IMG/VR virus record: IMGVR_UViG_3300030104_005320
Coordinates: 1-64,000 of that record
Direction: 5' to 3' (one strand)
Length of the DNA: 64,000 bases
From: a virus
A program made the translations under genes and the position numbers. Each line of letters begins with the position of its first letter. Within the stretch, counting starts at the first letter, position 1. Below are positions 27,669-40,149 of the stretch, piece after piece. The notes below the pieces were generated by a model that saw only the letters and a list, made by a program, of their open reading frames with translations, did no database searches and was not told where the DNA came from.

Positions 27669-27675
27669 ATACTGT

Positions 27676-27747
27676 GGTACGGTGGGATTGGTCATCTCCG
27701 TGAGTCTTATATACTCGCCTCCGCAAGTTCGATTCTTGCCCGTACTA
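27676..27747 (+). tRNA. Atypical tRNA-Ile(UAU)
   Basis: Acceptor GGTACGG/CCGTACT; anticodon arm TGAGT-CTTATAT-ACTCG; T-arm GCAAG-TTCGATT-CTTGC; non-canonical D-arm. Confidence 0.7.
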
Positions 27748-27751
27748 TTCT

Positions 27752-27825
27752 GGACTCGTAGCTCAGTTGGTTAGAGCAGGGGACTCATAATCCCTTGGCC
27801 GGGAGTTCGAATCTCTCCGAGTCTA
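27752..27825 (+). tRNA. tRNA(CAU), likely Ile2 (alternatively elongator Met)
   Basis: Canonical cloverleaf; anticodon loop CTCATAA; not initiator-type. Confidence 0.9.
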
Positions 27826-27845
27826 TTTTTAATTAAGGAGTTATT

Positions 27846-28187
27846 ATGGAAGAAAAATACGTTCGATTTCAACGTAATGACGGGAAGATGACGGGTAAGG
27901 TTCATATACTTGAAGGTGAAGATACAAGATGTGAATTATTCAGTAAAAACGCCAACAAAAAGAAGTGGCACATGATCGGCCCGATCACGACACTCAAAGG
28001 TTTGTCATACCACGAGGTAGAAAAGCCCGAACAGAATAAGTCGAATCACTGCTGCGGAGCCTGTTTTAACATTAAAAAAAAGAAAAAGAAAAAGAAAAAG
28101 AAGAAGCTGGGGAAACTTCCTAAAGTAATTCCAACCAAAAGAGGAACCCCCAGAAATCACAAAAACAAATATAGATGGTACGAGTAA
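27846..28187 (+). CDS. Basic hypothetical protein with poly-Lys tract
   Basis: AAGGAG SD; 12-Lys run. Confidence 0.6.
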   Translation: MEEKYVRFQRNDGKMTGKVHILEGEDTRCELFSKNANKKKWHMIGPITTLKGLSYHEVEKPEQNKSNHCCGACFNIKKKKKKKKKKKLGKLPKVIPTKRGTPRNHKNKYRWYE

Positions 28188-28197
28188 ATTAATTAAT

Positions 28198-28269
28198 GGC
28201 CCTATAGTTAAACGGATATAACAGTAGACTTCTAATCTTCAGTTCCAAGTTCGATTCTTGGTGGGGCTA
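28198..28269 (+). tRNA. tRNA-Arg(UCU)
   Basis: GGCCCTA/TGGGGCT acceptor; loop CTTCTAA; T-arm CCAAG-TTCGATT-CTTGG. Confidence 0.9.
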
Positions 28270-28316
28270 TTTAACAATTAGTAATTACAGAGAGTCAGTA
28301 AAATAAAGGATAAATT

Positions 28317-39052: not shown

Positions 39053-39519
39053 TAGATAAAAAAGATGCGTGGCATATGCTTTCTGTATGGGCCGCAGTAA
39101 AAATTGTTATAGCTATTGTAGTGCTATCGGTTATATTTTATTTCAACATGCCCACACAGACAGATGAAATATTCGGTGCTCCACGACATGGAACCGAGAG
39201 ATATTGGCAAGATGTAATTCACGAAGAACTTTCACAAAGAGACGGGTGGGGTTCTATCGAAAAAGAATACCGGCTAGACGATGGGACTAGGGTTGATTTG
39301 CTTCTCGAAAATGAGGCATGTGAGATTGACTGGGCCGATAAGTGGGCCGAAGGCGTAGGTCAATCAATTTATTATGGACTAAAAACCCGTAGAGGGCCGC
39401 TGGTTATTTTGCTTGCCAAGAAAGATGGCTGGGAAAAATACAGAGACAGGGTTGAATACTGCGGGGTAAATTGTTGGGTTTATGACACTAGAATAGAAGA
39501 TTGGGTTGACAAAGAATGA
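39049..39519 (+). CDS. Membrane-anchored PD-(D/E)XK-like protein
   Basis: N-terminal TM; EYRLDDGTRVDLL...EIDWA.KWAE.VGQ.IYY. Confidence 0.55.
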   Translation: MIDKKDAWHMLSVWAAVKIVIAIVVLSVIFYFNMPTQTDEIFGAPRHGTERYWQDVIHEELSQRDGWGSIEKEYRLDDGTRVDLLLENEACEIDWADKWAEGVGQSIYYGLKTRRGPLVILLAKKDGWEKYRDRVEYCGVNCWVYDTRIEDWVDKE

Positions 39520-39628
39520 TTACTGTTTTATCATGTGGACAATGCTGGCTTGGTATATCCCAGATATTAACCTTAGCCTTGATTTTTAGCGGGTCTGCTG
39601 TATATTGGATTAAAGAATTTTTTAAAAA

Positions 39629-39900
39629 GTAGCATGGCAGTTTGCCTGCCTAAACATGTAGATGTTATTATTGATGTTGTGACGGACGCGGGGGCAGTAC
39701 CCGCCACCTCCACTTCCCAGTCAAACGCTAGGGGGGTGAAACAGATTCGACGTGCGGCGTGATATAATAATTGCATGTGTTGGTTGATCTAAGGGCCAAC
39801 TAAAAAATAGATCAAAACTTTTAAATGCTGAACCTTGTTTAGCTTTGGCTGCGTAAAAACAGTCCGGGGGGTTGCCCGCCCTTGCTATCCAAACGGGCTT
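39629..39900 (+). ncRNA. ssrA: Circularly permuted (two-piece) tmRNA; tag AEPCLALAA
   Basis: T-arm and 3' acceptor strand (39688-39712) precede the 5' strand GGGGGTG-AAACAGATTCGAC (39732); G3.U70 pair; long P2; perfect PK1; tag ORF 39827-39856. Confidence 0.9.
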
Positions 39901-40149
39901 TTATTCACATATTGAGAGGTTTGTTATAATGCTTCCGTTTTTGTCAAATTCTACAGGATTATCCAACACCCATTGATCTACACATTCTTTATGAAGAAAT
40001 GTCTCACCGGACAGTATAGACAGCATCCTAGCCACTAGAGGCTCGCTATACACCATTTTTTGCTCGCACTGGATACAGTTCGGGCTTGATTTAATCAAGA
40101 ATAACAAGCATACTACAGCAATAACTATATAGACCATGTATTTTTTCAT
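39901..40149 (-). CDS. Small membrane-anchored Zn-binding protein
   Basis: GAGGAG SD; TTGTGTATA motif upstream; CxxC...HxxC; similar to 47209-47481. Confidence 0.6.
   Translation of the reverse strand: MKKYMVYIVIAVVCLLFLIKSSPNCIQCEQKMVYSEPLVARMLSILSGETFLHKECVDQWVLDNPVEFDKNGSIITNLSICE

What the first reader, a model, noticed from the sequence alone, without database searches (positions are those of the whole stretch)
39629..39900. Phage-encoded circularly permuted two-piece tmRNA with a GGCAGUA T-loop
Seen: the T-arm GCGGG-GGCAGTA-CCCGC and 3' acceptor strand CACCTCC-A (39688-39712) lie upstream of the 5' strand GGGGGTG (39732-39738), separated by 19 nt. The helix has the G3.U70 alanine determinant. 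P2 forms across the two pieces (ACATGTA/TGCATGT, GTTATTAT/ATAATAAT, ATGTTGT/GCGGCGT). PK1 is perfect (GTTGG/CCAAC, TTGATCTA/TAGATCAA). The tag frame after TTAAAT reads AEPCLALAA*. CCA is not encoded and there is little room for PK2-4. Established: permuted tmRNAs are known from alphaproteobacteria (which have the GGCRGUA T-loop), some cyanobacteria, some betaproteobacteria and jakobid mitochondria. Inference: a minimal permuted tmRNA in a phage whose other genes do not point to an alphaproteobacterial host is either a new permutation lineage or a cross-phylum acquisition.
Basis: partly seen in the sequence, partly recalled or inferred. Interest (0 to 1): 0.8.

Follow-up and report, generated by a model that had tools for sequence, protein, structure and literature searches.

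The report
Phage-born two-piece tmRNA gene
This uncultured phage carries a genuine split (two-piece) ribosome-rescue RNA gene that has one alphaproteobacteria-like loop but is otherwise a re-ordered version of the ordinary one-piece gene found at the same spot in sister phages, which points to a separate origin of this gene layout inside a phage lineage.

Summary
Phage two-piece tmRNAs are already published (Melnitz and about 53 others), so the existence of one is not new.

What is new is its ancestry. The window is part of a 116-kb IMG/VR phage from an abundant uncultured lineage. Sister phages carry a standard one-piece tmRNA 0.4-4.3 kb upstream of the same conserved gene. That gene has a near-identical tag (AEPSLALAA versus AEPCLALAA), a homologous PK1 and PK2, and an identical 24-nt stretch of P2.

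Other relatives carry permuted genes with a standard T-loop (TTCGATT) or an intermediate one (TGCAATT). None of the lineage genes encodes CCA, whereas all 39 true alpha-type viral genes do. Without the tRNA-like domain, the gene falls inside the phage clade in a tree. In 401 alphaproteobacterial genomes, only the tRNA-like domain finds a match.

The GGCAGUA T-loop therefore looks convergent. It co-varies perfectly with a D-loop GG-to-AG change (33 of 33 tmRNAs). The host is unresolved.

Earlier scan notes (e1-5697177, e1-5697191) describe a related permuted gene on other DNA, but did not report one-piece homologues.

The parts
39506..39534 (+). Candidate sigma-70-type promoter TTGACA-17-TATCAT (11 of 12), overlapping the end of the upstream ORF
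   Evidence: Consensus scan. This is a pattern match only. The sister phage G001 has TTGACA-17-TATAAT upstream of its tmRNA (sequence).
39579..39606 (+). Second, weaker promoter-like site TTGATT-16-TATATT (9 of 12), about 30 nt upstream of the gene
   Evidence: Pattern match only.
39636..39650 (+). 5' hairpin of the acceptor piece (GGCAG-TTTGC-CTGCC), directly before P2
   Evidence: Aligned to the hairpin at alpha_tmRNA model positions 40-55. A near-identical hairpin (CATGGCAGTTnGyCTGCC) precedes P2 in the permuted relatives L252 and L232.
39654..39683 (+). P2 3' strand (on the acceptor piece)
   Evidence: Pairs with 39752-39778 in the co-fold. The 24-nt block TAAACATGTAGATGTTATTATTGA (39651-39674), which overlaps this strand, is identical in the one-piece gene of L132.
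39688..39704 (+). T-arm: stem GCGGG/CCCGC and T-loop GGCAGTA (39693-39699)
   Evidence: The T-stem is shared with lineage genes G001, L132 and L263. The T-loop is identical to the alpha type.
39705..39712 (+). Acceptor 3' strand CACCTCC plus discriminator A. CCA is not encoded (the next bases are CTT).
39713..39731 (+). 19-nt intervening segment, removed during maturation (inferred)
   Evidence: It resembles the 13-nt spacers of L263 and L298 (CTTTCCAAACTAT and CTTACCAAACTAT).
39732..39751 (+). Acceptor 5' strand GGGGGTG (G3.U70) and D-loop analogue AAACAGATTCGAC, with AG (39743-39744) where standard tmRNAs have GG
39752..39778 (+). P2 5' strand (on the coding piece)
   Evidence: Co-fold. Compensatory differences are seen among nine lineage genes.
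39779..39815 (+). Pseudoknot PK1 (S1 GTTGG/CCAAC, S2 TTGATCTA/TAGATCAA)
   Evidence: both stems are maintained in eight lineage genes of both gene forms, by Watson-Crick pairs with a few G.U, through compensatory changes.
39827..39856 (+). Tag reading frame, resume codon GCT, AEPCLALAA, stop TAA
   Evidence: ARAGORN. The one-piece relatives L132 and L293 encode AEPSLALAA.
39866..39902 (+). PK2-type element that also looks like the terminator (G-run, GCCCG...CGGGC, TTTT). This is the 3' end of the coding piece.
   Evidence: Sequence. The 3' end is near-identical in the permuted relatives L252, L263 and L283. The second stem co-varies: GGCGA/TCGCC in L140, GTCCTA/TAGGAC in L132 and L293, TTCATGA/TCATGAA in G001. 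The simple terminator scan did not call it because the loop is longer than 8 nt.

Best explanation
The locus is a functional two-piece (circularly permuted) ssrA gene. It is probably transcribed as one precursor from a promoter at about 39506-39606. By analogy with Caulobacter, host RNase P would cut at G39732. A host 3' processing activity would cut after A39712, and the host CCA-adding enzyme would add CCA. The result would be an acceptor piece of about 80 nt and a coding piece of about 170 nt, held together by the acceptor stem and P2. Charged with alanine (G3.U70) and bound by host SmpB (the phage encodes none), the RNA would rescue stalled ribosomes during infection and add AEPCLALAA to the released peptides. 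Its origin is the notable part. It is not an alphaproteobacterial ssrA captured by a phage. It is a re-ordered descendant of the tmRNA gene that this phage lineage carries in a conserved neighbourhood. That gene is one-piece in several sister phages and permuted in others. The simplest route is a tandem duplication followed by loss of the outer halves, the model proposed for the bacterial cases. After the permutation, the tRNA-like elbow changed stepwise. First came D-loop GG to AG together with T-loop U55 to G, the state seen in L140 and L141. Three further T-loop changes then gave GGCAGUA, the same solution used by Alphaproteobacteria. Shown here: gene identity, fold, covariation, homology to the lineage's one-piece genes, and conserved neighbourhood. 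Inferred: processing, function, the direction of the rearrangement, and convergence of the T-loop.
For: Gene identity.

Lineage context: G000 is a 115.9-kb IMG/VR virus record. More than 598 viral contigs have a TerL at least 78% identical.

One-piece homologues near the same conserved gene: G001 (TerL 87%) has RF00023 at 107.7 bits with tag VEENFALAA, next to conserved downstream genes. G002 (TerL 80%, complete genome) scores 77 bits. L132/G012 scores 83 bits, has tag AEPSLALAA, and the downstream gene homologue lies 4.3 kb away.

Permuted homologues: L140 and L141 sit 0.6 kb upstream of the same downstream gene (57-58% amino-acid identity; RF04321 105 bits). L252/G007 (TerL 65%), L245, L263, L283 and L298 are also permuted.

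Identity of the window gene (5' part / 3' part): 66/68% to one-piece L132 and 64/65% to permuted L140, against 35-53/48-63% to alpha-type genes.

Non-TLD tree: the window gene lies inside the lineage clade (88/82, 89/92), across a 93/91 split from alpha-type genes. Forcing it together with the alpha-type genes costs 17.8 lnL units.

CCA: encoded in 39 of 39 alpha-type viral genes and in none of the permuted or closely related one-piece lineage genes tabulated (L238, of untested affiliation, does encode it), nor in the phage's three tRNA genes.

Alpha model scores: 73 bits and partial for the window gene, against 100-135 bits and full length for true alpha-type phage genes.

Shared boundaries: permuted genes share the 5' hairpin and the 3' end.

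T-loop series: TTCGATT, TGCAATT and GGCAGTA all occur within permuted lineage genes.

Elbow covariation: T-loop position 2 = G goes with D-loop AG in 12 of 12 tmRNAs, and T goes with GG in 21 of 21.

Alphaproteobacteria: in 401 sampled genomes only the TLD matches.

Interconvertibility: permuting L132's gene in silico gives an ARAGORN two-piece call with the same tag.
Against: The concatenated tree, which includes the TLD, places the window gene as sister to alpha-type genes (95/88). Its 29-nt T-arm plus acceptor block is identical to that of 39 alpha-type viral genes. The AU test does not formally reject an alpha grouping for the non-TLD part (p 0.08). The two gene forms are scattered over the phage phylogeny: TerL 87% and 80% relatives are one-piece, while a 65% relative is permuted. 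Each permuted variant also has a one-piece counterpart with the same tag and PK1. So the history involves either recombination of modules or more than one rearrangement, and the direction is not proven. The short one-piece genes of L132 and L293 contain only PK1 and PK2 and could be secondary re-permutations. The neighbourhood is not conserved in the more distant G007 and G009. The host is unknown. No expression or processing data exist.
Confidence: 0.62

Rival explanations
1. Chimera. The gene is the lineage's own permuted tmRNA, but its tRNA-like elbow (T-loop, and perhaps the D-loop analogue) was overwritten by gene conversion from an alpha-type permuted tmRNA, either from a co-infecting phage or from an alphaproteobacterial host.
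For: The 29-nt identity to 39 alpha-type viral genes. The tree that includes the TLD groups the window gene with alpha-type genes. In a permuted gene the whole TLD is one contiguous block, which makes a single conversion tract conceivable. Alpha-type phage tmRNAs are abundant in viral contigs from environmental metagenomes.
Against: A contiguous tract would also have imported the encoded CCA and the donor's spacer, yet the window gene has CTT after the discriminator and a spacer resembling those of L263 and L298. The T-stem and acceptor stem already occur in lineage genes, so only the 7-nt T-loop is alpha-specific. L140 and L141 show an intermediate T-loop with the AG D-loop, which fits stepwise change. 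An unrelated phage has a one-piece gene with a GGCAGGG T-loop, so such loops arise or spread outside alpha-type genes.
Confidence: 0.15
2. Ordinary capture or cross-phylum acquisition. The whole gene was taken from an alphaproteobacterium, or from a pelagiphage-type phage, as proposed for phage Melnitz.
For: RF01849 is the best clan match at 73 bits. The T-loop is GGCAGUA. There is a 5' hairpin like that of the alpha model. Precedent exists in PMC9004378.
Against: Only model positions 40-270 align, and the score is well below the 100-135 bits of true alpha-type phage genes. There is no ANDN tag, no encoded CCA and no alpha 3' tail. P2, PK1, tag and PK2 are homologous to one-piece genes in sister phages near the same conserved gene. 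No match beyond the TLD was found in 401 alphaproteobacterial genomes.
Confidence: 0.08
3. Reverse polarity. The permuted form is ancestral in this phage group, possibly derived long ago from an alpha-type gene. The one-piece genes of sister phages would then be secondary re-permutations, as in the mitochondrion of Jakoba libera.
For: The one-piece genes of L132 and L293 (about 260-280 nt) contain only PK1 and PK2, joined to the acceptor part by a 28-52 nt linker. That is exactly what a re-permuted two-piece gene would look like. In the non-TLD tree, one-piece genes nest among permuted ones.
Against: More distant relatives (G009 with TerL 50%, G002, and L238) have one-piece genes that match the full RF00023 model. 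G001's gene has about 170 nt between PK2 and P2. One-piece is the state in nearly all bacteria. The non-TLD tree separates the lineage from alpha-type genes.
Confidence: 0.1
4. The locus is a decaying or non-coding remnant, for example a TLD decoy that titrates SmpB, and not a working tmRNA.
For: A relative (L259/G015) does retain only the acceptor piece, with a mutated T-loop. TLD-only phage elements are known, such as phage DS6A (PMC4131195).
Against: All parts are intact and co-vary: acceptor stem with G3.U70, T-arm, P2, PK1, PK2, and an open tag frame ending in LALAA with a stop codon. The elbow change is compensated.
Confidence: 0.03

Closest known systems
Alphaproteobacterial two-piece tmRNA (Rfam RF01849; Caulobacter crescentus ssrA, Keiler et al. 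2000)
   Same: The gene order is permuted. The acceptor piece has a 5' hairpin, the P2 3' strand and the T-arm. The coding piece has PK1, the tag and PK2. The T-loop is GGCAGUA, paired with an AG D-loop analogue. G3.U70 is present.
   Different: CCA is not encoded. The tag is a 9-mer without ANDN. The alpha 3' tail (model positions 271-355) and the first 39 positions do not align. P2, PK1, tag and PK2 are homologous to the phage lineage's one-piece genes and not to alpha genes. The score is 73 bits, against 100-135 for true alpha-type phage genes.
Published phage-encoded two-piece tmRNAs (OM43 phage Melnitz, pelagimyophages, cyanophages; Buchholz et al. 2022, PMC9004378)
   Same: A two-piece ssrA in a large lytic-looking phage known only from environmental metagenomes. 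It is present in some relatives and absent in others, and no phage SmpB is encoded.
   Different: Those genes are interpreted as captures from the alpha, beta or cyano bacterial lineages. This one has one-piece homologues near the same conserved gene in sister phages. No glutamine riboswitch was detected at Rfam gathering thresholds.
Standard one-piece tmRNA (RF00023) of sister phages G001, G002, L132 and L293
   Same: Same neighbourhood in the closer relatives. Near-identical tag (AEPSLALAA in L132 and L293). Homologous PK1, PK2 and P2. No encoded CCA. Same T-stem.
   Different: The gene order differs. Those genes have a standard T-loop TTCGATT with a GG D-loop, and an extra 28-170 nt between PK2 and P2.
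Betaproteobacterial and cyanobacterial two-piece tmRNAs (RF01850, RF01851; Sharkady and Williams 2004)
   Same: Each is an independent permutation nested among one-piece relatives, with a reduced number of pseudoknots.
   Different: Those are bacterial chromosomal lineages. The merged RF04321 consensus keeps the standard UUCGAUU T-loop, so I infer that they do too. Here the event lies in a virus lineage, and the T-loop has drifted to the alpha-type sequence.

Membership tests
Two-piece (circularly permuted) tmRNA, Rfam RF04321 | Covariance-model score above the gathering threshold over the full model | tested here: met
   89.2 bits against a threshold of 47, model positions 1-213 of 213, E 8e-16. 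ARAGORN calls it in permuted mode.
Two-piece (circularly permuted) tmRNA, Rfam RF04321 | The 3' acceptor strand and T-arm are encoded upstream of the 5' acceptor strand, and the stem has G3.U70 and discriminator A | tested here: met
   39688-39712 lies upstream of 39732-39738. The pairing was read directly from the sequence and reproduced in the co-fold.
Two-piece (circularly permuted) tmRNA, Rfam RF04321 | P2 forms between the two pieces and is supported by covariation | tested here: met
   Co-folds of nine lineage genes give the same three-part P2 with different, compensating sequences, z -2.8 to -5.3.
Two-piece (circularly permuted) tmRNA, Rfam RF04321 | The coding piece carries PK1, a tag ORF with an Ala resume codon ending in a hydrophobic ..LAA, and PK2 | tested here: met
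   PK1 covariation in eight genes. Tag AEPCLALAA. The second stem of PK2 co-varies. This content matches PMC3985003.
Two-piece (circularly permuted) tmRNA, Rfam RF04321 | The precursor is processed into two RNAs, which are alanylated and active in trans-translation with SmpB | not testable with these tools
   No expression data are available and the host is unknown. The phage encodes no SmpB (PF01668 search of the 116-kb record).
Alphaproteobacterial tmRNA, Rfam RF01849 | Score above the gathering threshold and alignment over the whole model | tested here: inconclusive
   73 bits against a threshold of 50, but only model positions 40-270 of 355 align. True alpha-type phage genes score 100-135 bits over positions 1-355. 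Lineage relatives with a standard T-loop mostly fall below the threshold.
Alphaproteobacterial tmRNA, Rfam RF01849 | T-loop GGCRGUA | tested here: met
   GGCAGTA at 39693-39699. The model consensus reads GGCgGUA.
Alphaproteobacterial tmRNA, Rfam RF01849 | Encoded 3' CCA and an ANDN...ALAA-type tag, as in the model consensus and in all alpha-type viral genes sampled | tested here: not met
   CCA follows the discriminator in 39 of 39 alpha-type genes, whereas CTT follows it here. Nearly all the alpha-type tags contain NDN near the start (a few begin V or VAS), while the tag here is AEPCLALAA.
Alphaproteobacterial tmRNA, Rfam RF01849 | Common descent with alphaproteobacterial ssrA across P2, PK1 and the tag | tested here: not met
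   The non-TLD tree places the gene with the phage lineage, although the AU test against an alpha grouping gives only p 0.08. Identity outside the TLD is 35-53%. Only TLD matches were found in 401 alphaproteobacterial genomes. One of those genomes, G262, is flagged unpublished, and the claim does not depend on it.

The most novel reading that the evidence does not exclude
A further, independent origin of the two-piece tmRNA gene took place inside a virus lineage and not in a bacterial chromosome. One-piece and permuted descendants still coexist in sister phages. The permuted branch then converged stepwise on the alphaproteobacterial elbow (D-loop AG with T-loop G55, ending in GGCAGUA). That would make this lineage a natural series of intermediates for how RNA genes become permuted and how the tmRNA elbow can be rebuilt.
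Probability: 0.5. Interest if true: 0.75.

Novelty: new variant of a known kind. Interest (0 to 1): 0.62.

Why it matters
Circular permutation of tmRNA is a textbook case of RNA gene rearrangement. It is currently attributed to three bacterial events (alpha, beta and cyano) plus organelles, and the 2025 tmRNA database sorts every permuted gene into those three types. Phage two-piece tmRNAs have been read as markers of host ancestry; the alpha-type ssrA of Melnitz, for example, was used to argue for a host switch from SAR11. This locus shows that a phage tmRNA can look alpha-type to a covariance model and in its T-loop while descending from the phage lineage's own one-piece gene. Inferring host or donor from tmRNA type alone is therefore unsafe. 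The lineage also holds one-piece, permuted and decayed versions of one gene, with three T-loop states and a perfectly correlated D-loop change. That gives a ready-made comparative series for testing how permutation arises, whether it relaxes constraints on the elbow, and what SmpB, EF-Tu and AlaRS tolerate.

Tried and rejected
- **Cultured relatives.** A nucleotide search of cultured phages with the locus found nothing. TerL is only 22-33% identical to that of cultured phages. RNR is about 55% identical to those of pelagiphages and cyanophages, which says little.
- **Annotation of neighbours.** PHROGs left most neighbouring genes without a function.
- **Host prediction.** This failed. A 401-genome class sampled around a 'Gammaproteobacteria' MAG turned out to consist of roughly 0.8-Mb genomes and gave one TLD-level hit.
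- **Bacteroidota host idea.** The 9-residue tags resemble GENNYALAA-type tags, which I recall from memory as typical of Bacteroidota. I do not adopt this idea, because sigma-70-type promoters sit upstream of the tmRNA here and in G001, which in my understanding does not fit Bacteroidota.
- **Upstream anchor.** A search with the upstream 305-aa protein found no relatives.
- **Covariation by alignment.** MAFFT shifted the acceptor strand of L252 by one column, so I did not run the count of structure pairs on that alignment and used per-sequence co-folds instead.
- **PK2 script.** My PK2-finding script missed the 5-bp stem in the window gene, L252 and L263. Those stems were read directly from the sequence.
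- **In-silico rearrangement.** Rearranging the window gene into one-piece order was not called by ARAGORN. My guess is that standard mode rejects the non-standard T-loop. Only the reverse test, on L132, worked.
- **L032.** This locus first looked like the nearest relative by aligned length, but it belongs to an unrelated high-GC phage with a true alpha-type gene.
- **L256.** It has a GGCAGGG T-loop but belongs to an unrelated phage that lacks this TerL.

Full report
**Observation.** The stretch 39636-39902(+) is a circularly permuted tmRNA gene. ARAGORN calls a permuted tmRNA with tag AEPCLALAA. Rfam gives tmRNA_permuted RF04321 at 89.2 bits over the whole model and alpha_tmRNA RF01849 at 73 bits over model positions 40-270 of 355. 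Co-folding the two strands reproduces the acceptor stem, the T-arm and a three-part P2 (dG -42.5, z -3.6). The one error is the claim of little room for PK2. A PK2-type element that also looks like the terminator (39866-39902) follows the stop codon. PK1 plus PK2 is the normal content of a two-piece coding piece (PMC3985003).

**Context.** The window is the first 64 kb of a 115.9-kb IMG/VR virus record that is about 75% complete and has 38.9% G+C. It has a T4-type terminase domain, nrdA/nrdB, a GlmS-like gene and GDP-mannose dehydratase. Its TerL is only 22-33% identical to that of any cultured phage, yet more than 598 viral contigs carry a TerL at least 78% identical. This is therefore an abundant uncultured lineage. 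The phage encodes no SmpB. Sigma-70-like promoter matches lie at 39506-39534 and 39579-39606.

**What is already known.** Phage-encoded two-piece tmRNAs are published. Buchholz et al. 2022 (PMC9004378) found 53 in public phage genomes, 50 of them aquatic, and reported an alpha-type ssrA in the OM43 phage Melnitz. The 2025 tmRNA database recognises three permuted types (alpha, beta and cyano) and assigns every permuted gene to one of them (PMC11915505). So a phage two-piece tmRNA is not new in itself.

**Alpha-type phage genes are only superficially similar.** Thirty-nine viral contigs share the exact 29-nt T-arm plus acceptor block. ARAGORN of them, and three more are cut by contig ends. They are alpha-type permuted genes, and nearly all the called tags contain NDN near the start. 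All 39 encode CCA. Those tested score 100-135 bits over the whole alpha model. Outside the TLD they are only 35-53% identical to the window gene.

**The real relatives are in sister phages.**
- G001 (138.5 kb, TerL 87%) has a standard one-piece tmRNA just upstream of genes that are conserved with the window. It scores 107.7 bits on RF00023 over the full model, has tag VEENFALAA and a TTCGATT T-loop, and is preceded by a TTGACA-17-TATAAT promoter.
- G002 (148 kb, complete, TerL 80%) also has a one-piece gene, 2.5 kb upstream of the conserved gene.
- L132/G012 has a 281-nt one-piece gene with tag AEPSLALAA, one residue different from ours. It shares the 24-nt block TAAACATGTAGATGTTATTATTGA, the T-stem and the trailing CTT, and its PK1 and PK2 are homologous. 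L293/G008 is similar.
- L140 and L141 carry permuted genes (RF04321 105 bits, tag AEETLALAA) 0.6 kb upstream of a homologue of window:40276-40713 that is 57-58% identical.
- L252/G007 (174 kb, TerL 65%), L245, L263, L283, L298 and the truncated L232 are also permuted.
- L259/G015 (TerL 60%) keeps only a decayed acceptor piece.
- The window gene, L252 and L232 share the same 5' hairpin. The window gene, L252, L263 and L283 share a near-identical 3' end. These shared boundaries argue that the permuted genes have a common origin.

**Quantification.**
- The window gene is 66/68% identical (5' part / 3' part) to one-piece L132 and 64/65% to permuted L140.
- A tree of TLD plus P2, PK1 and tag puts it next to alpha-type genes (95/88). 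With the 49 TLD positions removed, it sits inside the lineage clade (88/82, 89/92), across a 93/91 split from alpha-type and proteobacterial tmRNAs.
- Forcing it together with the alpha-type genes costs 17.8 lnL units (p-AU 0.08). That is suggestive, not decisive.
- The alpha signal is thus confined to the TLD. Within the TLD, the acceptor stem and the T-stem already occur in lineage genes, so only the 7-nt T-loop is alpha-specific.
- None of the permuted or closely related one-piece lineage genes encodes CCA, and neither do the phage's three tRNA genes. L238, whose affiliation I did not test, does.
- The spacer resembles those of L263 and L298.
- In 401 evenly sampled alphaproteobacterial genomes, matches stop at the TLD. 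One of these genomes, G262, is flagged unpublished, and nothing here rests on it.

**Structure is conserved in both gene forms.** P2 differs between members in a compensatory way. Both PK1 stems are maintained through compensatory changes in eight genes. The second stem of PK2 co-varies. Permuting L132's one-piece gene in silico yields a two-piece ARAGORN call with the same tag.

**The T-loop.** Permuted lineage genes show three T-loop states: TTCGATT (L252, L245, L263, L283, L232), TGCAATT (L140, L141) and GGCAGTA (the window gene). Across 33 distinct tmRNAs, G at T-loop position 2 always goes with AG in the D-loop analogue (12 of 12), and T always goes with GG (21 of 21). The G/AG class includes alpha-type genes, the window gene, L140, and an unrelated one-piece phage gene with a GGCAGGG T-loop (L256). 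From general tRNA knowledge, these positions correspond to the G18-Psi55 elbow contact. The window gene therefore has a compensated alpha-style elbow, and L140 shows the first step of that change on a permuted gene that, like the rest of the lineage, lacks an encoded CCA. This favours stepwise convergence over import of a block, which would also have brought the CCA and a foreign spacer.

**Caveats.**
- The two gene forms are scattered on the phage tree, and each permuted variant has a one-piece counterpart with the same tag and PK1: the window gene with L132 and L293, L263 with G001, and L140 with L229. Module exchange between co-infecting relatives, or repeated rearrangement, must have occurred.
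- The direction of change, one-piece to permuted, rests on outgroup logic. More distant relatives, and nearly all bacteria, are one-piece.
- The short one-piece genes of L132 and L293 could be secondary re-permutations.
- The host is unresolved.
- Processing and function are inferred by analogy with Caulobacter.

**Verdict.** This is a genuine two-piece tmRNA gene. The kind is known, but its ancestry is not alphaproteobacterial. It most likely represents a permutation that arose within a phage lineage and later converged on the alpha-type T-loop. Earlier scan notes e1-5697177 and e1-5697191 describe the AKPSFALAA gene with a 127-nt spacer, which matches L252/G007 and is a relative of this gene. 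They filed it with Melnitz-type genes and did not report one-piece homologues.

Noticed in passing
L259:5000-5500 (- strand), contig IMGVR_UViG_3300040810_000833 (G015, TerL 60%): A decayed tmRNA remnant. The P2 3' strand, a T-arm with the mutated loop ATCGTTG and the acceptor 3' strand are present, but no 5' acceptor strand or coding piece follows. A protein gene starts about 100 nt downstream. Rfam gives no hit at its gathering threshold.
   Followed up: partly
L140:4045-4095 and L141:4045-4095: Directly upstream of the permuted tmRNA lies a tRNA-like minihelix (GCCAACC ... TGGG-TTCGATT-CCCA-GGATTGGC) with a T-arm but no D or anticodon arm. ARAGORN does not call it. It might define the 5' end of the acceptor piece through tRNA-processing enzymes.
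   Followed up: no
L252:1740-1870 (G007): The intervening segment is 127 nt long and contains two copies of a repeat of about 25 nt (AAAGTTGGGTCAGGGTTCCCA...). This is the feature described in earlier scan notes e1-5697177 and e1-5697191.
   Followed up: no
G009:C1:52117-55248 (contig of L229): The TerL homologue matches in two blocks (query residues 6-334 and 293-619) within one 1103-aa open frame. That suggests an insertion of about 400 aa, possibly an intein, in the terminase.
   Followed up: no
L256:6598-7118 (G423, complete 188-kb phage with terminal repeats): An unusually long (521-nt) one-piece tmRNA with T-loop GGCAGGG, D-loop AG, an encoded CCA and tag GNDYIELQAAA (my translation). 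It is in a phage that lacks this lineage's TerL.
   Followed up: partly
L299:476-847 and L300:41-412: Permuted tmRNAs (tag GTYNAPLALAA) that combine an alpha-like 3' tail (..ACCTGGGAACAGAAAACCCC..) with a standard TTCGATT T-loop and no encoded CCA. This is another mixed character state among phage tmRNAs.
   Followed up: no
window 39573-39776 (-) and 39901-40149 (-): The 67-aa minus-strand ORF lies entirely inside the tmRNA gene and is almost certainly spurious. The 82-aa minus-strand ORF ends exactly at the tmRNA 3' hairpin, so that hairpin may act as a terminator in both directions.
   Followed up: no
window 27675-28270: Three phage tRNA genes, Ile(TAT), Met(CAT) and Arg(TCT), none with an encoded CCA. 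The relative L132 also carries Arg(TCT) and Ile(TAT).
   Followed up: partly
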